From: Eledone cirrhosa
Taxonomy: Eukaryota
Length of the DNA stretch: 64,000 nucleotides
Direction of reading: 5' to 3'
Assembly: GCA_964016885.1 (NCBI GenBank)
Contig: OZ024751.1
Coordinates: 2,852,001 to 2,916,000, forward strand
Made by a program: the position numbers and the translations under genes. Positions 3,514 to 16,940 of the stretch are shown here, in pieces; position 1 is the stretch's first letter; every line of letters starts with the position of its first letter. The notes below the pieces were generated by a model that worked only from the letters and a program-made list of their open reading frames with translations, was not told where the DNA came from and ran no database searches.

Positions 3514-3573
<60 letters not shown>

Positions 3574-3581
<8 letters not shown>

Positions 3582-4109
3582 GTAAATTAAATTAAATAAA
3601 TAAAATAAGATAAATAAATACATACACAAGCACATAAACACACACTAGTCACCCAGCAGACACAACACTATACACACTAGTCACACATCACACATAACAC
3701 TATACACACACGCAAACGCATGCGCAAAGAAGACAAAATAAAATAAGATAAACAAACAAGCAAATAAATAAATAAATATATAGACAGACTGAACAAAAAA
3801 AAAATGGCGTAGACATACAACACAACAGGAGGAACAATGAATATAACACCACTGACGATGTTGCAGATGTGCAACGAAAGATTTATGTAAATTATGTAAA
3901 CTATATATATATGTGTTTGTCTATATTGTATCTGTATTATTTTTGACCGCCGGTCAGTCAATGGCAACATTGAGGACCGAGTAAGTTAGATCGCAGATAT
4001 ATATATATAAAAGACAGCGAGAAGCGAAAACCAACCAAACAGTGAGTGTGTTCTGTTATTAATTCTGGCAATATTACGCAAATATGACCCTCCCCAAATA
4101 TAACAATAT
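3574..4109 (+). repeat. 5' pseudo-LTR of PLE
   Basis: Direct repeat of 7741-8276; contains HHR core, a GAGTAAGT splice-donor-like site and the ORF ATG. Confidence 0.9.
3841..3897 (+). ncRNA. Type I hammerhead ribozyme (minimal) in 5' pLTR
   Basis: CTGACGA(3852-58)-T-GTTGCA/GATG/TGCAAC stem II-GAAA(3876-79)-GATT-TA; interrupted stem I ATATAA..CA / TG..TTATGT. Confidence 0.7.
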
Positions 4110-7100
4110 CTGTTTCGACACACGATTTCATATAAAAAACCTCGCAAAACTAATTCATCGCCGCTATGGCATTAGCTTGTGCCAAGCTGAAAGGTTATTG
4201 AAAGACACTGTTTTCTGTTATATAAAAACTACAATAACAACAGAACAAATCCGCTTCTTAAAACACTGTGTTTCCTCCAAAACATACACAACAAACATAT
4301 CAAAACAAGTAAATAATTTATTATTGAACAAAACACAAGCTGAACGGCTAAAACACACAATAACAGTTAATATGAAAAGAACAACATACACAAAAGTCAA
4401 CGCACTCTACAGACAAAAACGCATCAACGGTAAGGAAATCCGAAATCTCATCACAGCAAACGAGAGAGATGACTTCATGAGCGTCATCCGACGCGAAACG
4501 AAATATGCTCAAAACGAATGCTGTAGGCATTTCAAGAAGAAATTAGAATGGATGAATAAGAAAAAACTACAAGAAAGGAAAATCGAATATTCTCAAAAAT
4601 ACCCAGATAACATCGACAACATCCGTATGAGTGATGTAAAACTACCGGAAGAATTTACCAATGACCACACAGTAAATATCTATGGGAACACTTTAATCAG
4701 TGAACAAGAACAACAAATCCTAAAGTTACCACCAAAATTTGCCATCTACAAAAAGATTAACCCTATGGAATGCAAAACGGAGCTGGAAAAGTGTTTCACA
4801 AAAATACGTTGGAATGCAAAGGTAAACAACAACAACAATAATAACGGTAGTAGTAATATAAACAATAACTCTGGGTATAGAAATAACAGCCATAACCATA
4901 ACAATGGCAGGAAAGTGAGAAATAGTGATAATAGTAATAATACTAGCGATAGACAGAACAACAACAACCACAATAATAATAATAATAGAAACGTTAACCA
5001 CAGACACAGCAACAGTGACCACAGTAGTAATAACGGTAACAATACGAACAACAACAACAACAATAACCACAGTGGTAATAATGGAAATAGTACATGTAGC
5101 AACATCAACAAAAACAAGAAACATAATAATAGTAACAACCACAATGGTAGAAATAGCAGTAACAACAACAACAATAACGGTGAAGTAAACAACAATACAT
5201 CTAGCAATCATAACAATAATAATATTAATGCTAATGATAGAAACAACAACAACCACCATGATAACAATAATAGCAACACACACAACTATGACGATAGAAA
5301 TAACGACAACCCCTTAGAGAAACTATTTTTCAACCCAGCTGACAAAACATATAAGATGGGTAATATCTATCCTACGAGGTTACCCTTTAATAAAAGAGTT
5401 TGCATACCACAGCAAATAGATGACGAGACGGAGGCACAGTTCACCATAGCTAGAAATAAGATTAGACAAGTAGTAGACAGGTACACTATGAGACAGAGCA
5501 GACCAGAGGCCCAACAACTTGGGATAAAACCTGTAGAAGGCTTGGTTAGCCTCAAGCAGCGCACAAGGGAGGGTGAGGTAGTGTGTCTACCCACAGATAA
5601 GTCTGGTAGGATGTCAATAGATAGCATGCCGAACTACATCGAGGCAATGCAACCCCACATCACCAACACGAGCGAAGTTGCACAACTAACACACGATGGG
5701 AGAGAAAAAATCCTCAACGCTCACATGATGATGTGGACTGACATCCTAAAGCCAAGCAGACGCACTGCCAACAACTTCCAGGCGTCTAACAATGGCATAC
5801 CACCCTTGTATGGGCTCCGCAAAGACCACAAGACAGTCGACGACCCGACAACAGGACCACCAACAAGACCCGTATGCGGAGCTAATATAGCTAGCAACTA
5901 CAGGATCTCCTACTTCCTCTCAATGGTTATACGCCCCATAATCAAGATGTCCCCAGATGTATGTGAAAGTACAGAGGACCTCCTCAGCAGAATCAGTGAG
6001 TGCAACAGAAAAAAAAAACAAAAAAAAAAAAACAGGAGCCTATCCAACTGCATAATAGGCAGCATGGATGTGGTGTCACTGTACCCATCCATTAACATTG
6101 ATTTTGCTGTGAAAAGATGTGTGGAGATGATCATTGAGAGTGAGGTGGAGTTCTGCGACGTCGACACAGACGAACTGGGCCTTCTACTTAGACTTACCTA
6201 CGACACTGACTACCTAGACAGCCATGACCTTAGATGTTTCTGCCCTAGTAGACCTATAAGAGGTAGACCCCCCACCATAACCTCAATGGCTAAAAAGACT
6301 CCCATAGGAAGGTGGATTGGGTGGACCAAAGCTATACGGACCCCCCAAAACACTGATCAGGTAAGAAAAATGGTCGCACATGCAATAGGGGCTAGTATCA
6401 AAACTACCCTAAAGGGCCACATATTTAAGTTCAATGAGAAAATCTACACCCAAAATGAGGGAGCAGCCATCGGCGTCAGCATAGCTGGTGATGTTGCCAA
6501 CCTTTTCATGGTATGGTGGGAAAGGAGACTTAAAGATCTCCTCCTTAATGAAAGCTCCATAGACCTCATCATGTACTCTCGTTATGTAGACGATATCAAT
6601 ATAGTTATAAGAACACCCCCACTAGAGAGCACTAACAAGTTTGATTTAGAACGTAGCACGGTGGAAAGCATCCAGCAGATAGCTAATTCCATACACCAGA
6701 GTATAACTGTAACTATAGACTTCCCTTCCAAACACCCTAACAATAGACTACCTGTATTAGACACAGAACTCTGGATTAACACTATAGACGAGAGAGCCCA
6801 AATTCTCCACTCACACTATGCTAAACCCATGGCCTCCAAATACCTGATACTCAAAAACTCAGCAATGTCCAGTAGTGCTAAGTTTAATATTCTGATCGCA
6901 GATTTGGTACGAGTGATGAAGAATGTGTCCAGCATGTGCGACCCAACAGAAATGGAAGGACACATCCAACACTTCATCAACCGCATGCGGTTCTCTGGCT
7001 ACAACCAAAGAGACAGAGTCAGAGTATACGAAGGAGCCATGGAAAAGTATAAGACCCTCATAGAACTGGACATGAAAGGAATTTGCCCACTATACAGGAG

Positions 7101-7740
7101 CAAATCATGGAATAGCTTAGATAGGGCTAGACATAAGATAGGGAAGGCCACATCATGGTACGACAACCAGAGATATCAGAGTGTCATGTTTGTGGACGCC
7201 ACCCCTGGAGGGAAATTAGCTAACCAGTGTAGAAAGGCCCTGAGAAAGACCCACTTAAAAATAAAGGTTGTAGAAAAGCCAGGAACCACCATAAAATCCC
7301 TGATCAGCAAAACCTACCCTTTTAAGAAAACCCACTATACCAATAGGAAATGTATCATATGTAAGGTGAACCCCCGGATAAACTGTAAAACTAGAAACGT
7401 AGTCTATAGCATAAGATGTACAGAGGGTACTTGCAGAAACACGACAACAACATACATAGGTGAGACAGCTCGTAGCATAGGTGAAAGGATAGACCAACAC
7501 TGGGGGGAACTAAAAGGACGAAAAAACGGGTCAGTACTATACGAACATGCTAGACAACAACATGACGGTAACATAGACAACATAGAAATTAGAATAATAT
7601 CTAAACATAGGAATGACCCAGCAGATAGGCAAATCAGAGAGGCCAGTGAAATAGAAATTAGAAGACCAAAGCTAAACAGAAAGAATGAGTGGAACAACAA
7701 CAACACCCAAACAAACAACACTGACCTAAGAGAAGTATAA
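4084..7740 (+). CDS. PLE polyprotein: reverse transcriptase + Cys-rich linker + C-terminal GIY-YIG endonuclease, with Asn-rich insertion
   Basis: Uninterrupted 1218 aa; TDKSG, YGLRKDHK, RPVC, SMDVVSLYPSI, GAAIG, RYVDD, PVLD; CIIC...CKTRNVVYSIRC...YIGETARSIGERIDQH. Confidence 0.93.
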   Translation: MTLPKYNNICFDTRFHIKNLAKLIHRRYGISLCQAERLLKDTVFCYIKTTITTEQIRFLKHCVSSKTYTTNISKQVNNLLLNKTQAERLKHTITVNMKRTTYTKVNALYRQKRINGKEIRNLITANERDDFMSVIRRETKYAQNECCRHFKKKLEWMNKKKLQERKIEYSQKYPDNIDNIRMSDVKLPEEFTNDHTVNIYGNTLISEQEQQILKLPPKFAIYKKINPMECKTELEKCFTKIRWNAKVNNNNNNNGSSNINNNSGYRNNSHNHNNGRKVRNSDNSNNTSDRQNNNNHNNNNNRNVNHRHSNSDHSSNNGNNTNNNNNNNHSGNNGNSTCSNINKNKKHNNSNNHNGRNSSNNNNNNGEVNNNTSSNHNNNNINANDRNNNNHHDNNNSNTHNYDDRNNDNPLEKLFFNPADKTYKMGNIYPTRLPFNKRVCIPQQIDDETEAQFTIARNKIRQVVDRYTMRQSRPEAQQLGIKPVEGLVSLKQRTREGEVVCLPTDKSGRMSIDSMPNYIEAMQPHITNTSEVAQLTHDGREKILNAHMMMWTDILKPSRRTANNFQASNNGIPPLYGLRKDHKTVDDPTTGPPTRPVCGANIASNYRISYFLSMVIRPIIKMSPDVCESTEDLLSRISECNRKKKQKKKNRSLSNCIIGSMDVVSLYPSINIDFAVKRCVEMIIESEVEFCDVDTDELGLLLRLTYDTDYLDSHDLRCFCPSRPIRGRPPTITSMAKKTPIGRWIGWTKAIRTPQNTDQVRKMVAHAIGASIKTTLKGHIFKFNEKIYTQNEGAAIGVSIAGDVANLFMVWWERRLKDLLLNESSIDLIMYSRYVDDINIVIRTPPLESTNKFDLERSTVESIQQIANSIHQSITVTIDFPSKHPNNRLPVLDTELWINTIDERAQILHSHYAKPMASKYLILKNSAMSSSAKFNILIADLVRVMKNVSSMCDPTEMEGHIQHFINRMRFSGYNQRDRVRVYEGAMEKYKTLIELDMKGICPLYRSKSWNSLDRARHKIGKATSWYDNQRYQSVMFVDATPGGKLANQCRKALRKTHLKIKVVEKPGTTIKSLISKTYPFKKTHYTNRKCIICKVNPRINCKTRNVVYSIRCTEGTCRNTTTTYIGETARSIGERIDQHWGELKGRKNGSVLYEHARQQHDGNIDNIEIRIISKHRNDPADRQIREASEIEIRRPKLNRKNEWNNNNTQTNNTDLREV

Positions 7741-8268
7741 ATAAATAAGTAAATTAAATAAAATAAATAAAATAAGATAAATAAATACATACACAATCAC
7801 ATAAACACACACTAGTCACCCAGCAGACACAACACTATACACACTAGTCACACATCACACATAACACTATACACACACGCAAACGCATGCGCAAAGAAGA
7901 CAAAATAAAATAAGATAAACAAACAAGCAAATAAATAAATAAATATATAGACAGACTGAACAAAAAAAAAATGGCGTAGACATACAACACAACAGGAGGA
8001 ACAATGAATATAACACCACTGACGATGTTGCAGATGTGCAACGAAAGATTTATGTAAATTATGTAAACTATATATATATGTGTTTGTCTATATTGTATCT
8101 GTATTATTTTTGACCGCCGGTCAGTCAATGGCAACATTGAGGACCGAGTAAGTTAGATCGCAGATATATATATATAAAAGACAGCGAGAAGCGAAAACCA
8201 ACCAAACAGTGAGTGTGTTCTGTTATTAATTCTGGCAATATTACGCAAATATGACCCTCCCCAAATAT

Positions 8269-8276
<8 letters not shown>
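7741..8276 (+). repeat. 3' pseudo-LTR of PLE
   Basis: Direct repeat of 3574-4109, starting immediately after the ORF stop. Confidence 0.9.
8008..8064 (+). ncRNA. Type I hammerhead ribozyme in 3' pLTR
   Basis: Same sequence as 3841-3897. Confidence 0.7.
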
Positions 8277-8321
<45 letters not shown>

Positions 8322-8322
<1 letters not shown>

Positions 8323-10944
8323 TAGATGAATTACCCGGCGTTGCCCGGGTTACTTCTGTTCTTATTCAGATTACTAAACAATAAATATGAAGATATGTTT
8401 TTTTTTGTGATAATTATTTCAAAATATCTATATTTTATTTTTTTAAATATCAAAATTGTAATGATAATAGAATTTAGAAATGAAAATCTGTCAATTTTGA
8501 AGCACCTTAGGGTAAACAATATTCATTGTATAGTTTTTTGTTGCTGTCCAAATGAATATATTTTTGCTACACACATACACTCTCCCATTCATATACTAAG
8601 ACACACACACATATACATACATTCACGCAGACACACACATAGCTTTTCACCTCATTTTTGGTCAGTTGCTACATATGTGTATATGTGTGAGTGTATTTAA
8701 TCACCAACCAAAGGTGTGTCGTTTTCTATTGTTTTAATGCAAATGAAAATAAAAATTATCACACATACACTCATACACACATACACTCACACGCACATAC
8801 ACTCACACATACACTCACTCACACATACATATACTAAGACAGACACACACAGACATACATTCACGCAAACCTATTACTTGTCAGTCACCACATATGTATA
8901 TGTATGTGTGTGTTTAATTGTCTGTGTGTGAAGATAATGTGTATGCAACTTACTAACGCTATATTATAACACATCGTTGTAAACAATGTTCTTTGTTTTT
9001 CCGCGTCGTGCAAATGCGAAAAGGCTTCCTCTGCTTCCCACTCGGGAACACCCAACGTACAATTGTCCGTGTGAGAAATATGACTCTTCCAAGAGTCCGG
9101 CCACAGACAGGATCTGATCTTGGGATTTATTCATGGACATTGCAAAGTTGACACGAACTGGAAATTGCAGACGTCTTAATGAAAAGGGAATTTCTGCTCC
9201 TAATGGAATGAGAGAGATTCTTGGAATGAAGACGTCATCAACTTTTCCACATCCAGAAAGGATTGTTGTGACATCATTTTCTTTACCACCAGTCGTATCC
9301 CATTGCACAGTCTTTGCGGATCTAGATTCCTAAGCAGCATTACAGGAGTTCCATTTTTAAGTCCTAATATGTGGGGAGGTAGTCCGTGGTGCTCCAATGG
9401 ATTGAGAATTTCTGTAGGATAGTTCACCACTTCATTGTGATCGGGAATTGGGTCGACAGACTTGTAAGTGTGAAGATTTCCTGGAAGAGACAGCATTAAC
9501 TGTTCGTTGAGTTTATTAACAGCCATGTTTTTTGGAGCCATTATTGCTCTTTCGCACAGCCAATTGTGATTTTGGTAATTTTCTGTCAAGTTCGGAAACA
9601 CTTGGCCTTTCAGCTCCTCCACAGAATTAACAATGGTACGAAATGGCCAGACGTCCATTTCTCTGGCAGCATCGAGAGGTATCTTGCCATCGCCAAGCAT
9701 CAAAATATCCTGTGCAAACCTGGTGGACATGTGGTCACCGTGTAGTTGAGCTCTCATGCTAGTGGTAAGATTCAGGGTCGTAATGTGTCGCCACAATGGA
9801 GAGGATTTAAGGCACGCCTGGACTTCATCTGCCCTGGTGCCTTTGGGAATAACGGGAAGAGTCTGTCTGGATTCACCAGACAACAGAAGCGTTACACCTC
9901 CCATTGGAGCATGAAAATCTCTGATATCTTTAATGGTTCTATATACTGCTTCCAGAGCTCCTTTGTGGGCCATGATGCTGTTTGAGGACCTGACCCTGGT
10001 CTGAGCTTTTACTGATGTTGCAGGTAGGCGTTTCAGATGTTGATAAATTCAGGGGTAGTTTAAATGTCGAGTGCGCTGTCCTGCCACCGGGCAGCAAAGT
10101 AGCAGCAATCCCAGAGGAGGCAACAGCTACCACGATATCCCTATGCTGCCTAACTTTTGCAAGGAGGAACTTCATTACAAAAGTTTTTCCTGTCCCTCCA
10201 GGTGCATCCAGGAAGAAGATACCTCTTTTTTGGTGGCACACATGGTCGACAATAGTGCTGTAAGCCTGTTGTTGGTCCGGAAGCAGTTGTGGTTCAGTGT
10301 CGATAACATATTGGGAAAGGGCAACAATGTCGTAGGATGTTTCTCGTAGGATGGCTGTGGGAAGTACGTTTGACTCTGTTCGGAATGTTTGGGCAGGCCA
10401 TATGTGGGCAAATCATTTCCACCGAGTGAAACAATCCTGTCTTCTTTGTCAACCAGTGCTCTGTTGTAGACCTCATCCCTGGTACCTCCCATGTCAAGGT
10501 ACTGCAGTTGTGCCAGACGTTTAAAATCCTCATTTCAGTACTTGAACCACAAATACGAAGGATTATACAATTCACGTTTGCAACAATAATTTCAAATAGT
10601 ATCAATTTTACTTTGTTCTGTAAAATGAAAGACTGTAAAACGACTTATTGTTAAACCTTCAACTAATATACTCTGATCTATAGTTTAAGCCGGTGTGGGA
10701 CGTCACTCTCTCTCTCTCTTTGACTATCTAACACTTTAATTGTATCTCTCTCTGTATAACGGCCTATCTCTCTCTTTTTGGTTCTCCCTCTGTGTGTCTC
10801 AAATGATTTTTTGTGTCGGTTTTTCTCTTATAGAGGGCGCAGTAGACAGAAATCTGAAAATGTAATGATTTCGTACGAAGGGCAGCAGCATAACGCATGT
10901 GTTTGCCAAATTTGAAGAAAATTCAAGCTGTAGAAGTTACGCGG

Positions 10945-11014
<70 letters not shown>

Positions 11015-11049
11015 CACACATAGTCTATTTTATATATAAATATGAAAGA
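8322..11049 (-). mobile_element. Non-autonomous/decayed Helitron with Pif1-family helicase remnants
   Basis: Minus-strand 3' end CCCGGGCAACGCCGGG hairpin followed by CTAG (8322-8349); helicase motifs APGGTGKT, SSGIAATLL, GRTAHSTFK, LLRNL....LCNG, QFPVR..FAMS.NKSQ, FSHGQLYV.CSRV over 8964-10492; 5' end approximate. Confidence 0.88.
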
Positions 11050-11929
11050 GAGGGAGTGAAGGGGAGAGCCAGTGTGTATTGGAATTTGTCAGATGTAGAA
11101 ATACACAATAAAGAGAGACATAATGAGACACAATAAAGAGAGGCATAATGAGACACAATAAAGAGAGACATAAAGAGAGACATAATGAATAATTGAGATG
11201 GAAGTATTTTATTCAGGTATGTTCTGGTTTATTCCGGTTTATGCCTGTCCATCCTGTTCTCTGAAGCTCTTGATCAAATCATTCTCGGTCGGCAGCAGGT
11301 AAATGCTCCACAAATATCCTTTAGAAGCCAATCCTTCTTCTCTGTTGGTCGACAAATATGGCGGCACCAACCGTCAGTACCGCACACGTGACTATCAGAC
11401 GCTGTCGCTATTTAAGGAACAATAACGATGACCCACAGACTGTGTATAGCAGCACTGTCATGTCTTCTGCTGTAAATTGTTTAGATACATGACTTTCTCA
11501 CCTGTAGTTAGTTTTGTGTTAGATTTTTTTAATACGAGTAGAGTTCCTGTATAGGTGTATATATATATAAATATATGCGTGTGTGTGTATCCATATGTGC
11601 GTGTGCACGTATATGCGTATGTATAGGTGTGCGTATGTATTTACTTACGTGGCTGAATGTGTTAGTATAAGTGTCTAAATGAAAGAGCTTGCGCGATGGA
11701 TTAATGTGCGCATGCGTTTATTTTCAAGTTCAGAACAAATGTGTGAGACTCTCGTGTGAATTAGATCACGTGTCACAACTGTCTAATCTAAAAAAAAAAG
11801 AAAGAGGAAAAGAAAGAGAAAGGAAAAATCACGTAAGTCGTTATCACACACATCAAGGACCACATACAACAAAAGGCAGGCGAAAGGGGTGGACAAACAA
11901 GACGCTACCAGAGCAAAAGATAACAATAT

Positions 11930-13150
11930 AGCGAGGAGCACTGGGAAACCTCTATAATATTTTTTGAGACAACGTGATGGCGAGGCTGATGTGCTGGAAC
12001 AACCAAGCGCCCTCACGAAGATCAACAGTTACGTCTGTTAGGCGAGCCGCCTGTGCAGATAAGAATCTCGCAGTCAGTAGCTCGACTAGTCCAAACGTCT
12101 CGAACGCCACACGCTGGAAAATGTAGTTGGCCGACAGATCACGGTATTTTATGTGGGAAGAAACAAAAGTCACGAACTGTAACGTCCCAGATAAGGCCTC
12201 TTGACCAGGGGCACAGAGTAAGGCCGTTTCCAAAATTGAAAGGTTGTTTTCCCGTGCCAAAGCCCTCTTGAGGATGCGTTTTAGCTGTGTGTGACGCGGG
12301 AGGCGACCAGTATTCACGCGGAAAGAGTCCTGTGGAGTCGTGGAGTTTGCCACATCGACACCTCAGACCCGTACAGACGTCGACCTCCACTCTGAGAGCA
12401 ATGGAGACACGAAGTTTGTCCAAGCTGAGTAGGCGACCAACGTTAGCCACGGGTAGGGCATCAACCCAGTCACCTGAGTATTTGATGCTAGCAGACAGTA
12501 AGCGTCACCTTGAGAACTGATTTGATTGGTCGAAGAGAGAGTCAAAAGTGGACCTCGAATATTTGCTGTCCCAAGCTCTCTGACTTCGTCTGTCCTCCAC
12601 ATTGTCAGGAACAGTCAAGCCCAACTCATTCCATCGCAGGAGAGCTTCATCCAACTCCCAGTCGGTTTGGTGCTACTGAGGAGCCCCAATTACAGACTTT
12701 GCCTTCGAGTCAATCTTCCTATCGAAGATGGTTGACTTTGAGCAATTGTTGAAGAATATTGAGGTAATCGAACCCCATCAAGGTTTTTTTCCTACTCAGA
12801 AACTACCTTTCGATTCCTAAGCTTCTATATATGCTCAGGCTCAGCCCCTCTCATAGTTTCTGTCCTGCCTCCAATGCTTCAATGACTTAATCTTCGAAAG
12901 ACTCGAGTGCTTGGTCAATGTCAGACTCTCTCCAGAGTCCCGCGATCAGGCTGCGTTGCCCAAGTGATTTGGGGGTCTTGGTCTTCGTAAGTGTTCGTCC
13001 CTCTCTCTCCCTTGCTTCCTTTCCTCCACCCACGCTTGCTCCATCCTGGTGAGTAACATCCTCTCCTCTCCAACATGGACTAGTTCCAACAGGGAGTTGG
13101 ATGAAGCTCTCCTGCGATGGAGTGAGTTGGGCTTATCTGTTCCTGACTGT
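11930..13150. mobile_element. CRE-like (restriction-like endonuclease) non-LTR retrotransposon fragment with internal inversion
   Basis: Minus 11930-12510: CRCGK..D..GL, RH, PWSRG.LIWDVT, KY, AFETFG, WLFQHISLAI; plus 12520-13150: FFLLRNYLSIPKLLYMLR, GGLGLR. Confidence 0.75.
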
Positions 13151-13639
13151 CTAATTAACAGAGAATTTGTTAGTGTGGTTAAGATTCAACAAAAGAAACT
13201 TATAGTTGTTTTAAGTTGCGTTTGCAAGGAATATCAGATACTTCCCCAAGTCTGTCATGACTGACTAGCTCTATAAAGACGTTTAAAGTAATTAAATAAA
13301 TAAATTCAGATAACAATACTGCGTGTTTAAAAATGTGAAGAGAAAAGAACGAGAGGGAGAGAGAGAATAACAGAGATCGAGAGTTAGATAGATAGATAGA
13401 TAGATATGTTTCTTTATTAGCCACAGGGGCACAAAAGAAGGGGACAAATACAAAGGGGGAAGTTTACATACAATAAAAACGTGTAAAATGTTATCACAAA
13501 TGGAATTTAAAAAGTTAGTCGATTTTCCCCAATAGAGGGAGACAGTTTATATGGGTAACACATACCCCCGAAAAAATGTGCAACCCTCATCTCCAGGAGT
13601 ACGAAGAGTTTGTACTCCCTTCCTCTCCTCCTCCTTTTC

Positions 13640-14400
13640 CTCAACCTACAGGCTGATATAGAGAGAAGGCCCATTCACTCGGGCCATTCTCGCCACTTTC
13701 ACCCACCTTTCATAAAACTTGCTGGGGTACAGCACCTCTCTCTCCTGATTCTTCTTCCAAAGTGGTATTTGAAAAAAAGAATCAGTTGTTGGCCGGAGAG
13801 AAAGGTGTCTGACCTCAGCCCTTTCAATCTTGTCCACCATACAACCTCTTTCGCCAGAGCTATCACACAAAGGAAAACCGCCTCTCCTTCGTTTTTGAAG
13901 GAGGGTGGCGGTTTGATCATGACAATGGACTCGGTTGTCAACCGGATTGGTCCCACCCGCGACAAAAGTCGTTCTACATAGCCCCACAGGTCAGTGACGC
14001 CCGGGCAGTGTATGAATGCGTGCGCGACGGTTTCTTCGTCTCGCACGAACCTCGGACAGATCTTTTATGCAGGGTCCCTGCCCGGGCGCCCATGTCTGTA
14101 GAGCTTGTCTCGAACTGGTAGAGCTCCTCGGTAGCACTGCCAGGCCAGGGACTTTTGGAAGTTGTCCATCGGTCCCGGGCGGAAGGTCCTACCGAACAGA
14201 CTGGCCAGTTCATCTTCCTATACGCCTAGAGTTTCACCGAGCGCGTCGTCGCACTTGCTGCGGACCAACCCTCTATAGAATGACGAAGTGGAGTCTCCAC
14301 TGATCGCCGGGTCCGCCTGCCAGAGGGCTGTGAGCGCCTGAGCACATTCGATGTGCCGGTCGCCCATTTTCCTCGGTCTTTGCTTGACCCAGGACTGCAG
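13640..14400 (-). mobile_element. Tx1/L1-like LINE 3' fragment
   Basis: ETVAHAFIHC zinc-knuckle region and AKEVVWWTR; homologous to 39500-40000. Confidence 0.8.
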
Positions 14401-14441
14401 CTAGATAGATAGATAGATAGATAAAGAAAATGATAGGTATA

Positions 14442-14510
<69 letters not shown>

Positions 14511-15102
14511 GTATATGGAGAGAGTAACAGATCGAGAGATGGAGAGAGAGAGAGAGAGATAGAGATGGAGAGAGATATAAAGATGATAGAGAGATAAATA
14601 AACAACTTCATATTAACTAGTAAGTGTTGCATGTATGGTTAAAAGAAAGGATACGTGCACGGCGGATGTTGTTGTTGTGGGCAGCGACCTCACCAAAGAG
14701 ATGTACTAGCCATTGGTAAGTGGCTGGTCCGAGAGTTGTATTAACATATCGTTTTGGAATTGTGTAGAGAAACGAACCTCCTTGATCTCCTTTGTTGTAT
14801 AGTGAGGGTGATGATGATGATAGTGGTGTTGGTGATGGTGGTGGTAGGGATTCACACGACTTCATCATCCAGAAACTATAAACACAGCCAAACAGTAGAA
14901 ATACTTTCAATCTGAAAACAAACCAAAAAAAAAAAAAAATAAAATAAAAAAAAACCCAAACATCTAAAACATGCAAACAGTAGAAGAAATACAATGATTA
15001 ACCCCCACCGCCAAATCAGTCTCAGAAAAGTTTCTTTTAATGTATTGAACCCCCATTGGCAAGAGGTTACCACTGTCTGTGTACACACACATATATATAT
15101 AT

Positions 15103-15127
15103 ATGAAGGACCAGCGTCCGAAACGTC
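15103..15127 (+). ncRNA. 5'-truncated hammerhead remnant
   Basis: (TA)n-ATGA-A-GGAC/CAGC/GTCC-GAAA-CG-TC; CTG and stem I 5' arm are lost at the (TA)n junction. Confidence 0.5.
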
Positions 15128-15224
15128 TTCCGACTGTTTTCCTACTATAGTGTAAAACTAATATATTTTTTCATTGTACAGTGTCGTTTGTTTGCTTTGT
15201 TTTATCTGTTTAACTTTTGCATGG

Positions 15225-15617
15225 ATATGTCTATGGCGGGTAAAATTCCATGTACGAGTTCTCTCCAGTGATCTCTGTCCTTCATCATCGCCGCCATATC
15301 CTGCGTCTCCCAGAGATCAGTGTCTGCCCTTAGGGCATCACTATATATGTCATCCTCGGTCTCCTTCTTCTAGTGTGCCCATGCAGGAGTTCCACTGGAC
15401 CACTAAGTACAGTGTCAACTCTCAATGTTGGTCAGCATGTCCAGCTAACCTCAGTCTCCTCTGTGTTACTCTGGAGCTCACTTTTGGGAGGCTCCCGTAC
15501 AGTTCTGAGTTCTCAGTGTATACTGAGGATGAAGAACTCAGAACTGTACGGGAGCCATCCTCAGTATTCTCGTGTAGCACCCTTCCACCATCTGAGTGAG
15601 TCTCTTGGTCAGTGCAT
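15225..15617 (-). mobile_element. RTE LINE 3' fragment (related to 2318-3402) with small internal foldback
   Basis: Reverse complement of the 3000-3390 type sequence; ~15490-15560 contains a short inverted duplication. Confidence 0.75.
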
Positions 15618-15691
<74 letters not shown>

Positions 15692-15875
15692 ATATATGGC
15701 GTTATATATCTATTTGCTTCTCTGAATGAGATTTTTTAGTGATCACTTTTCATTGAGATGTTATGTATATTCTGAGAATTTTATTTATATAGTTATACTT
15801 TTGTGAGGTCATGCTGCCAATAAAACACACGCACCTGTTGGTTTTCACTTCAATTTATTATTAATATAAACTCTC

Positions 15876-16170
15876 AGTTAGTTAGATTAATAACCGGATG
15901 ATTGTTTATTTGTTTATTGTCAAAGCTCTTTCGTCACACATTATGTGACCCTCTCAGTGACTACCTTTGTTATTTTGTTCTGTCCTACAGCATCTTGTTT
16001 TTGTGTGTGAGCTGTGAGCACACAGCTCACAGCAACAAGATGATGTAGGACAGAACAAAGGAGAGACTCAAAATAACAAATTAGTCACTGAAGAAATCAC
16101 ATAATGTGTGACGAAAGAGCTTTGAAAATAAACAAATAAACCACCATCCGGTTATTATACTAACCAACTG
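15876..16170. repeat. Head-to-head palindrome carrying two degenerate type I HHRs (- 15919-15961; + 16084-16125)
   Basis: Consensus GTCA-CTGAAGA-R-GTCACAT/AAT/GTGTGAC-GAAA-GAGC-TT-TGAC; each arm has a different lesion. Confidence 0.75.
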
Positions 16171-16194
16171 GAAATTGATAATAAATAATATACG

Positions 16195-16940
16195 TATATA
16201 TAATACTGAAACGAAGCTGTCGAAAGGACAGATACACCTTCAGTCGTTTTCCCAGTCACTCAATAATTTAATTAAGTCAGTATTAATAAGACACCAACCC
16301 CAGGAAATTAGAGTGGAAATATAAGTTAAATAGTGAGAAAAACGATTTCATGTGAGTAAAAATTTGATTTTCGGACCAATGCATTTGTTTCTGCAACTCC
16401 AGCTGCTAGAGACAGTCCAAATGGATCTACCACGCACAGAGATTAGGTAATGCTATTCAGCATTGGCTAAGAGTTACATGATCAGTGGGAAATTATACAC
16501 TCCGGAATAGATCAGCTACCAACTCACTGTTCTGATGTAGGTAAACTCAACCTTCAGTGGTATGGGACTTGACAGCGAAGAGATGGTAAGCAATTTCTGA
16601 CTAATCACAGAGGACACGTTGGCACGTATTCCAATTGATAAAATGAAAAAGGGCGATGAAGCACTCAACTAAGGCCTCCATATATAAAGCGAAGACATAA
16701 TTGCAAACAATTAATAAATAAATCAAACTATAATAAACAGTAAAAAAGTTCAACTTACAATTTGAATGCGGGTTATTCCCGGGAGTTTGAAAAAATAATA
16801 CTGAAACGAAACTATCGAATAAGGCCGATACACCTTTGGCCGTTTTCCCAGTCACTCAATAATTTAATTAAGTCAGTATAATTATGGCACCAGCCCAAGG
16901 AAATTAGAGTGGACACTTAATTGTTAAATAGTTAAAAAAA
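16195..16940 (+). repeat. Diverged ~140-bp direct repeat pair (16195-16340, 16795-16940)
   Basis: Shared ATAACTGAAACGAA...TTTCCCAGTCACTCAATAATTTAATTAAGTCAGTA...GGAAATTAGAGTGGA. Confidence 0.7.

What the first reader, a model, noticed from the sequence alone, without database searches (positions are those of the whole stretch)
3574..8276. Intact, apparently young PLE whose two ribozymes would excise an exact 4167-nt unit containing the whole ORF
The pLTRs differ at only a couple of visible positions and the 1218-aa ORF is open, so the element may be active. A read-through transcript cut after 3885 and 8052 would release a monomer covering 4084-7740 with ligatable ends. Circularisation would be retrozyme-like (inference). 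The two HHRs could also form the dimeric fold in cis.
Basis: partly seen in the sequence, partly recalled or inferred. Interest (0 to 1): 0.7.

Follow-up and report, generated by a model that had tools for sequence, protein, structure and literature searches.

The report
Young Penelope element, oversized RT finger
This is a recently inserted Penelope-type jumping gene whose two end repeats each carry a small self-cutting-RNA motif that is predicted to fold poorly, so the proposed cut-out RNA circle is an already published and still untested idea; the less ordinary feature is that its copying enzyme, and those of a large group of relatives, carries a roughly 70-residue insertion where telomerase also has one.

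Summary
The anatomy is confirmed: 536-bp pseudo-LTRs 4167 bp apart with 2 mismatches, an open 1218-aa RT plus C-terminal GIY-YIG ORF, (TA)n on both flanks, and a minimal type I hammerhead in each repeat (0 of 5000 shuffles). The 4167 nt is simply the repeat period, and cut-ligate-circle was proposed for these elements in 2014. The ribozyme has a 2-bp helix I, a wobble helix III and a hairpin over the cut site. The copy spans both cut sites, so a linear monomer cannot have been its template. A conserved TATAAAAG lies downstream of the 5' ribozyme. The copy is not pristine: Tyr1085 replaces a linker Cys kept in 75 of 79 aligned proteins. The family is young and abundant; the closest named protein is from Octopus vulgaris (67%). 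New here: all 79 aligned proteins have 131-140 residues between RT motifs A and B, against 62-67 in published C-terminal-endonuclease Penelope elements. This insertion sits at the telomerase IFD position but did not superimpose on it. The scan had noted ordinary Penelope hammerheads elsewhere, including this genome. No RNA data were available.

The parts
3520..3576 (.). (TA)n target, left flank (57 bp; its last bases merge with the element's 5' end)
3574..4109 (+). 5' pseudo-LTR (536 bp): the whole inter-ORF spacer plus the first 26 nt of the ORF
3841..3897 (+). 5' minimal type I hammerhead motif: core 3852-3858, stem II 3860-3875, GAAA 3876-3879, loop GAUU, predicted cut after 3885; proximal helix I 2 bp, possible distal AU-rich helix 3841-3846/3892-3897
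4006..4013 (+). TATAAAAG, candidate TATA box, 121 nt downstream of the predicted cut and 78 nt upstream of the ATG; also seen in diverged sister subfamilies
   Evidence: loose-end consensus rows; promoter function is inferred
4084..7740 (+). ORF, 1218 aa: N-terminal region, Asn-rich insert, DKS motif, RT, thumb, Cys linker, GIY-YIG endonuclease
4825..5310 (+). Asn-rich low-complexity coding segment (about aa 248-409), at a site of variable length among homologs
6007..6033 (+). A-rich in-frame run (KKKQKKK); probably the 21-nt stretch missing from near-identical copies in runs X3 and X5 (gap place inferred, not printed)
   Evidence: table 8
6067..6594 (+). RT core from motif A (D662) to YVDD (D836, D837), with an insertion of about 70 aa between motifs A and B (about aa 686-756)
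7336..7386 (+). Linker Zn-finger-like motif, short Nematis-like form; its first Cys reads Tyr1085 in this copy
7390..7677 (+). GIY-YIG endonuclease (VVY...YIG) with C1112, C1117, H1155, H1160 and catalytic-position R1135, E1186, N1198
7741..8276 (+). 3' pseudo-LTR; ends 26 nt into the repeated ORF start (tail-like end, inferred start point of reverse transcription)
   Evidence: comparison with PMC11167929
8008..8064 (+). 3' hammerhead motif, identical to the 5' one; predicted cut after 8052
8273..8321 (.). (TA)n target, right flank (49 bp)

Best explanation
This is a recent partial-tandem Penelope-like retrotransposon in a (TA)n microsatellite, likely copied by its own enzyme from an uncut, longer-than-unit transcript, with hammerhead motifs that are predicted to cut only weakly and are probably not needed for the copying step. 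Inferred steps: the GIY-YIG domain nicked the (TA)n target. Reverse transcription began inside the RNA about 26 nt into the downstream ORF start, ran through the 3' ribozyme, the whole ORF and the 5' ribozyme, and stopped at the A/T-rich start of the spacer, leaving 1.13 units. The element's own mRNA likely starts near 4035-4045 behind the TATA motif and would then carry only the 3' ribozyme. Since insertion, or during copying, this copy gained a few private changes, including Tyr1085, which may impair its endonuclease module. The RT belongs to a large lineage with an insertion of about 70 residues at the telomerase IFD position.
For: Shown: repeat, ORF and flank anatomy. The copy crosses both predicted cut sites (4703 bp against a 4167-nt unit). 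Helix I has 2 contiguous pairs against 3-7 in 10 of 10 comparison hammerheads; its second pair has probability 0.006 against 0.83 or more in 8 of 10; the dimer helix III is +0.2 kcal/mol against below zero in 9 of 10. An active-like fold lies 3.6-5.4 kcal/mol above the free fold, and helix I stays at 0.001 or less in three longer contexts. TATAAAAG recurs in loose-end consensus rows of sister subfamilies whose neighbouring sequence differs (row 4020, 44 contigs, row 8187, 69 contigs, and one 11-read row). From papers: internal initiation at the tail, ribozyme mutants not affecting insertion, and no RNA-seq ends at the cut site (PMC11167929); low in vitro activity of minimal PLE hammerheads even as dimers (PMC4209133); Naiads amplify without canonical hammerheads (PMC8557442). 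Family depth rises about 30- to 60-fold from the 5' ORF to its 3' end in run X1, as 5' truncation predicts (the tool warns that depth is not copy number).
Against: The core and stem II form a conserved island. In run X22 about 105,500 reads run off unlike before 8010 and about 84,200 behind 8048, and none of the 40 substitution rows shown (of 91) lies in 8019-8052. So the motif is likely under selection and does something. Relatives carry a sense-strand hammerhead behind the ORF (4 of 19 loci with 150 nt or more downstream by the strict scan, a fifth as a core variant). The Anolis ribozyme cuts when the element's protein is added, so folding energies may understate cutting. In D. virilis the start site lies 46 nt before an intron whose 3' end abuts the ribozyme, that is upstream of it, so my downstream start is not the rule. 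A ligated circle explains the 1.13-unit copy equally well. Unchecked scan notes on non-coding retrozymes in this genome argue for copying of cut or circular RNA. The comparison set was picked by my own descriptor, and I left out two weak hits (L064, L031).
Confidence: 0.6

Rival explanations
1. One reading: a read-through RNA is cut at both hammerheads (as a cis dimer or with protein help), the 4167-nt unit is ligated into a circle, and the RT runs round it more than once to give the partial tandem.
For: Exact unit geometry with the ORF inside. Conserved core. It explains more-than-unit copies without a tandem donor, as proposed in PMC4209133. Small retrozyme circles exist in animals (PMC7229834). 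Near-identical pLTRs are expected if both came from one template.
Against: Weak predicted fold, with dimer helix III at +0.2 kcal/mol and partners 4 kb apart. Nine AATAAA hexamers lie between the stop codon and the 3' ribozyme (also a hurdle for uncut read-through). The candidate TATA box lies downstream of the 5' ribozyme. Anolis data show no need for cutting. Near-identical pLTRs are also expected from a young tandem donor.
Confidence: 0.25
2. The ribozyme acts singly, not as a pair: it trims or destabilises read-through RNA (3' end formation, or release from a host transcript), limiting expression rather than making the template.
For: The core is conserved across subfamilies. If transcription starts behind the TATA motif, only the 3' motif is in the mRNA, and cutting there would remove the tail-like end.
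Against: A 2-nt helix III loop cannot close in a monomer, so a second copy is needed (PMC4209133). No RNA evidence was available here.
Confidence: 0.15

Closest known systems
C-terminal EN+ Penelope-like elements with a Cys linker (Nematis and Neptune clades; Craig et al. 2021, PMC8557442)
   Same: Single ORF, RT then GIY-YIG with CCHH, CX2-5CxxC linker (short, Nematis-like form in relatives), partial tandem with pLTRs, tail-like end, (TA)n target, hammerhead in the pLTR. The RT fold is closest to telomerase RT (Z 15.2, rmsd 3.8, 367 aligned).
   Different: Motif A to B spans 131-140 aa in 79 of 79 aligned proteins against 62-67 in the seven C-terminal EN+ rows that I counted by eye in Fig. 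S1. DKG reads DKS. The motif before RT reads YGLRKDHK. This copy has Tyr at the first linker Cys.
[quoted passage not shown]
   Same: Type I, extra base before stem II, G10.1-C11.1, 6-bp stem II, short near-palindromic helix III, 2-bp helix I; the dimer and circle ideas are in that paper.
   Different: Helix III here is palindromic only with two G-U pairs, and a hairpin competes for the cut site. No intron was identified here.
PAc (Poseidon, Anolis carolinensis; Frangieh et al. 2024, PMC11167929)
   Same: The 3' end lies inside the repeated ORF start, the target is A/T-rich, and there is a hammerhead in the repeat.
   Different: PAc starts copying 111-118 nt into the ORF and its ribozyme overlaps the start codon; here the end is at +26 and the cut site is 198 nt upstream of the ATG.
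Naiad/Chlamys PLEs and telomerase RT (IFD-bearing)
   Same: Long insertion between RT motifs A and B (by eye about 88 aa in Naiad-Amil, about 122 in human TERT, about 126 in Chlamys-1_tObl).
   Different: Here the endonuclease is C-terminal and canonical hammerheads are present. The modelled insertion did not superimpose on telomerase IFDs.
Asn-rich ORF inserts of Adineta vaga Penelope elements (Arkhipova et al. 2013, PMC3846280)
   Same: In-frame Asn-rich segment built on (AAY)n.
   Different: Here about 160 aa and N-terminal to the RT; there 460-554 aa, between RT and thumb, or a 1.5-kb insert between RT and EN.
Metazoan non-LTR retrozymes (PMC7229834; bioRxiv 10.64898/2026.07.22.740005)
   Same: Type I hammerheads in tandem units.
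   Different: Retrozymes are non-coding units of 170-400 nt with demonstrated circles; this is a 4.2-kb coding unit with no RNA evidence.

Membership tests
EN+ Penelope-like element | Single ORF with telomerase-related RT | tested here: met
   RT motifs intact; RVT_1 E 6e-05 on the core, below Pfam's cut-off; model pLDDT 91.5, top structural matches are telomerase RTs
EN+ Penelope-like element | GIY-YIG endonuclease with CCHH motif | tested here: met
   VVY...YIG, C1112, C1117, H1155, H1160, R1135, E1186, N1198 conserved in alignments; relative P0025 hits GIY-YIG at E 0.003, while the window's own domain gave no Pfam hit
EN+ Penelope-like element | Partial tandem with pLTRs and a tail-like 3' end | tested here: met
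   536-bp repeats, ending 26 nt into the ORF start
EN+ Penelope-like element | Hammerhead motif in the pLTR | tested here: met
   0 of 5000 shuffles; also behind the ORF in 4 of 19 related loci
Nematis/Neptune | CX2-5CxxC linker before the endonuclease | tested here: met
   First Cys in 75 of 79 aligned proteins (3 gaps; this copy Tyr); short spacing as in the Nematis rows of Fig. S2, without the Neptune-length insert (by eye)
Nematis/Neptune | Short motif A-B interval (no IFD) | tested here: not met
   131-140 aa in 79 of 79 against 64-67 in the printed Nematis and Neptune rows (by eye)
Nematis/Neptune | RT phylogeny within the named clade | not testable with these tools
   No named reference sequences were available; the tree holds only unnamed outgroups
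Penelope/Poseidon | No Cys linker between RT and EN | tested here: not met
   Linker present
Hydra clade | CCHH absent, DKT, CxCX5C linker, under 3 kb, no IFD | tested here: not met
   CCHH present, DKS, 4.2-kb unit, long A-B interval; only the KDHK word is shared
Naiad/Chlamys | N-terminal endonuclease and no canonical hammerhead | tested here: not met
   Endonuclease is C-terminal; hammerhead present
Telomerase IFD | Insertion between RT motifs A and B | tested here: met
   About 110 of 193 residues overlay RTs with short intervals (8c8j: 108 aligned, rmsd 3.2; 6uso: 111 aligned, rmsd 3.5), leaving about 80 unmatched
Telomerase IFD | Same fold as the IFD | tested here: inconclusive
   Best IFD-bearing matches Z 4.5, rmsd 11.3, 138 aligned (6zdp) and Z 3.6, rmsd 13.5 (9swo); no Foldseek match at E 0.001; part of the insert has pLDDT 58-65
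Retrozyme-like circular intermediate | Self-cleavage at both motifs and a ligated unit-length RNA | not testable with these tools
   No RNA holder listed; folding predictions only

The most novel reading that the evidence does not exclude
The element represents an unnamed, widespread clade of C-terminal-endonuclease Penelope elements in aquatic animals (195 protein clusters hit by the profile; named members in octopus and sea cucumber). Its RT carries a conserved, telomerase-sized module in the fingers, which the current clade descriptions say such elements lack. The module may serve to hold the template through more-than-unit copying.
Probability: 0.4. Interest if true: 0.5.

Novelty: new variant of a known kind. 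Interest (0 to 1): 0.33.

Why it matters
How Penelope elements regenerate their partial tandems, and what their hammerheads do, is still open. This copy does not settle it, but a young, abundant family with a weak ribozyme allows a clean genome-wide test of circle against uncut template. The fingers insertion matters more for RT evolution. Craig et al. 2021 used this feature to link N-terminal-endonuclease elements to telomerase, while noting that it may have been gained or lost several times. A large C-terminal-endonuclease lineage with a longer insertion at the same site adds an independent case and a natural test of its role in processivity.

Tried and rejected
No assembly was available, so copy number, empty-site polymorphism and full-copy comparisons could not be done. 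No RNA holder was listed; this is no evidence on expression. Rfam found no hammerhead at gathering score. Pfam gave nothing on the whole protein, and PDB sequence search gave nothing for the single protein. I wanted to test circle against tandem donor by asking whether the two pLTR differences are shared family variants, but both lie in the repeat stretch the tool skipped (7733-7971). The tail end (8262-8330) was skipped too. I looked for an excess of copies ending at the cut site: there is no depth step at 8052 in X1, and none of the 24 loose-end rows shown (753 not shown) lies there; this is inconclusive. The read-end piles in X22 at 7587-7590, 7656, 8060 and 8228-8231 fall on AATT words and are read as restriction ends of the RAD library, not ribozyme ends. 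Alternative cut sites after 3883 and 3884 give 1 and 0 helix I pairs and were rejected. 15 of 19 related loci with downstream sequence gave no hit in the strict hammerhead scan; one of them (L001) has a core variant. Clade placement: a search with the endonuclease region found nothing, viral contigs held no relative, and the Craig supplement, as far as held, had no RKDHK, TDKSG or RPVCG word. The tree puts 18 long-interval proteins with L048 on one side of a 99/98 branch, but it has long branches and no named references; 4 of 22 chosen proteins and 3 of 19 loci gave no core and were left out. The insertion found no clear fold match among 48,161 chains, which does not show a new fold. Lunse et al. 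2017 was not held. ADAR editing as the source of the private changes was considered and not pursued: too few sites.
Full report
Observation. The element runs from 3574 to 8276 between two (TA)n runs (3520-3576 and 8273-8321). Its ends are direct repeats of 536 bp at an offset of exactly 4167, differing at 3593 and 3630 only, a divergence of 0.37% (95% interval 0.05-1.35%). The repeat is the whole spacer between the stop codon and the ATG plus the first 26 nt of the ORF. The ORF 4084-7740 is open for 1218 codons. Each repeat holds CUGACGA, one extra U, a 6-bp stem II closed by G-C, GAAA, GAUU and UA; the best cut is after 3885 and 8052. The descriptor hit 0 of 5000 shuffled pLTRs. Rfam gave no match. 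No second copy lies in the window.

Protein. A search with residues 410-1218 gave 79 proteins, the best from Octopus vulgaris at 67%. A profile of 79 sequences hit 195 clusters among 7988 candidates scored, including one from Holothuria leucospilota. The host was not determined; the octopus match fits a cephalopod. RT motifs A, B and YVDD and the endonuclease residues C1112, C1117, R1135, H1139, H1155, H1160, E1186 and N1198 are conserved. The model of residues 411-1218 has mean pLDDT 91.5, and its best structural matches are telomerase RTs, as expected for this class. An Asn-rich segment at about aa 248-409 sits at a variable site; such inserts are described in rotifer Penelope elements (PMC3846280, passages read).

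Young, but not pristine. In run X1, 2179 of 7156 contigs laid on 7250-8330 are 99% alike or more, and in raw-read run X22 72,153 of 289,139 laid reads are. So the family is not only old copies. Summed depth rises from about 8,500-16,700 over the 5' ORF to about 540,000 near its 3' end, the pattern of 5' truncation, though the tool warns that depth is not copy number. At 7337 nearly all depth reads G where the window has A: 338,830 of 338,932 in X1, all of it in X3 and X6, and 938 of 945 and 121 of 265 in the two read directions of X22. The family thus has Cys where this copy has Tyr1085. This is the first cysteine of the linker motif, present in 75 of 79 aligned proteins. Other private or near-private changes are at 6661 (V860), 7442 (T1120) and 7269 (silent). 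A 21-nt stretch, probably the KKKQKKK run, is missing from copies in X3 and X5; one homolog (P0066) also has an insertion there. Whether Tyr1085 disables the protein is untested.

The ribozyme. Related loci carry a sense-strand hammerhead 130-400 nt behind the ORF in 4 of the 19 loci with at least 150 nt downstream, and a core variant in a fifth. Within the family, sister subfamilies match the window across about 8010-8048 and diverge on both sides, and none of 40 substitution rows shown of 91 falls in 8019-8052. The motif is therefore likely selected. It is also weak on paper. Against ten hammerheads from related and more distant loci (two weak hits, L064 and L031, left out), it has 2 contiguous helix I pairs against 3-7. 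Its second pair has probability 0.006, against 0.83 or more in 8 of 10 (0.09 and 0.12 in the other two). Its dimer helix AGAUUU is +0.2 kcal/mol, against below zero in 9 of 10. A hairpin over the cut site is favoured in every context folded. The loose-end consensus of a sister subfamily suggests that it has the same 2-bp helix I (my reading), so this is probably a family trait rather than decay. It resembles the D. virilis variant, which cut poorly even when helix III was lengthened (PMC4209133, parts 1-2 of 4 read).

Mechanism. The 4167-nt figure needs no explanation beyond the repeat period. What the DNA does show is that this copy is 1.13 units long and crosses both cut sites, by 312 bp and 224 bp. 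A linear cut monomer cannot have been its template; an uncut read-through RNA or a ligated circle could (or template jumping). The circle route and the dimer fold were proposed in PMC4209133 in 2014. The only purified system since (PMC11167929, parts 1-2 of 4 and passages read) found internal initiation at the tail, protein-assisted cutting, no effect of ribozyme mutants on insertion, and no RNA-seq ends at the cut site. Naiads amplify without canonical hammerheads (PMC8557442; passages, sections 3, 11 and 12, and supplement parts 1, 54 and 55 of 57 read). A TATAAAAG at 4006-4013 recurs in sister subfamilies and lies downstream of the 5' ribozyme; if it is the promoter, the element's own mRNA has one ribozyme only. 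Against this, the D. virilis start site lies upstream of its ribozyme (PMC2377424, passages read). I put uncut template at 0.6, circle at 0.25 and single-site trimming at 0.15. Animal retrozyme circles are demonstrated for small non-coding units (PMC7229834, passages; bioRxiv 10.64898/2026.07.22.740005, part 1 of 5 and passages; review PMC6765202, passages).

What differs from known clades. The endonuclease and linker look Nematis-like by eye. But the distance from the motif A aspartate to the motif B glycine is 131-140 aa in 79 of 79 aligned proteins, against 61-76 in the 27 distant PLE-like loci where both motifs were found. In the seven C-terminal-endonuclease rows of Craig Fig. S1 it is 62-67 by my count. 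The extra residues, about 70, carry conserved words (ELGL, CP.R, GR.P, R..W). Craig et al. state that canonical elements lack this insertion and that it occurs in Naiad, Chlamys and sporadically Coprina. Folded alone, about 110 of 193 residues overlay short-interval RTs, while IFD-bearing telomerases align only at rmsd 11-14. Same position and size are shown; homology is not. The long-interval proteins group together in a tree without named references. Searches for 'Penelope-like' with 'insertion in fingers', with 'IFD', with Neptune, Nematis and DKG, and for new clades since 2021 listed no description of such a lineage; these were seen as listings. Arkhipova 2006, Repbase and the cut part of the Craig supplement were not seen and may already hold it, hence 0.4.

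Verdict. The finding as written is a good example of a known element with a known, unproven hypothesis, and this ribozyme is a poor candidate to prove it. The lineage-wide fingers insertion lifts it to a new variant of a known kind. Interest 0.33.

Noticed in passing
window:4134-7732 against runs X3, X5, X7: Contigs from runs labelled organisms B, C and D match the element at about 99.5% (0-7 differences per 170-820 nt) at low depth, and 16 studies hold part of it. This could be close relatives, carry-over or horizontal transfer. The neighbouring LINE is also near-identical in B and D, which favours relatives or carry-over.
   Followed up: partly
window:2349-3405 (+), inverted copy about 15247-15511: 3' part of an RT-bearing LINE ending in (TAGA)n, abundant in run X1.
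   Followed up: no
window:9200-9973 (-) and 10175-10492 (-): ORF fragments that look like a Helitron/Pif1-type helicase (label recalled from motifs, not searched).
   Followed up: no
window:871-1479 (+): 202-aa ORF resembling a LINE AP-endonuclease fragment (label recalled, not searched).
   Followed up: no
window:17006-20000: Tandem array of about 533-bp units, at least 6 copies; no hit with my canonical hammerhead descriptor; permuted forms not tested.
   Followed up: partly
L001:4973-5030: Hammerhead behind a related ORF with the 15.1-16.1 pair apparently swapped to U-A around a palindromic AGCT and a well-paired helix I; this ORF region also holds a 21-nt-period tandem repeat.
   Followed up: partly
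P0080 (Octopus vulgaris annotation): An annotated F-box/leucine-rich-repeat protein contains a piece 71% identical to this ORF over 19% of the query: exon capture or an annotation artefact.
   Followed up: no
L063:318-3937: A distant relative with a further long acidic insert just before RT motif A and a frameshift in the A-B interval.
   Followed up: no
window:58000-64000: Strong G over C and T over A skew (GC skew 0.57-0.74), suggesting a simple-sequence array.
   Followed up: no
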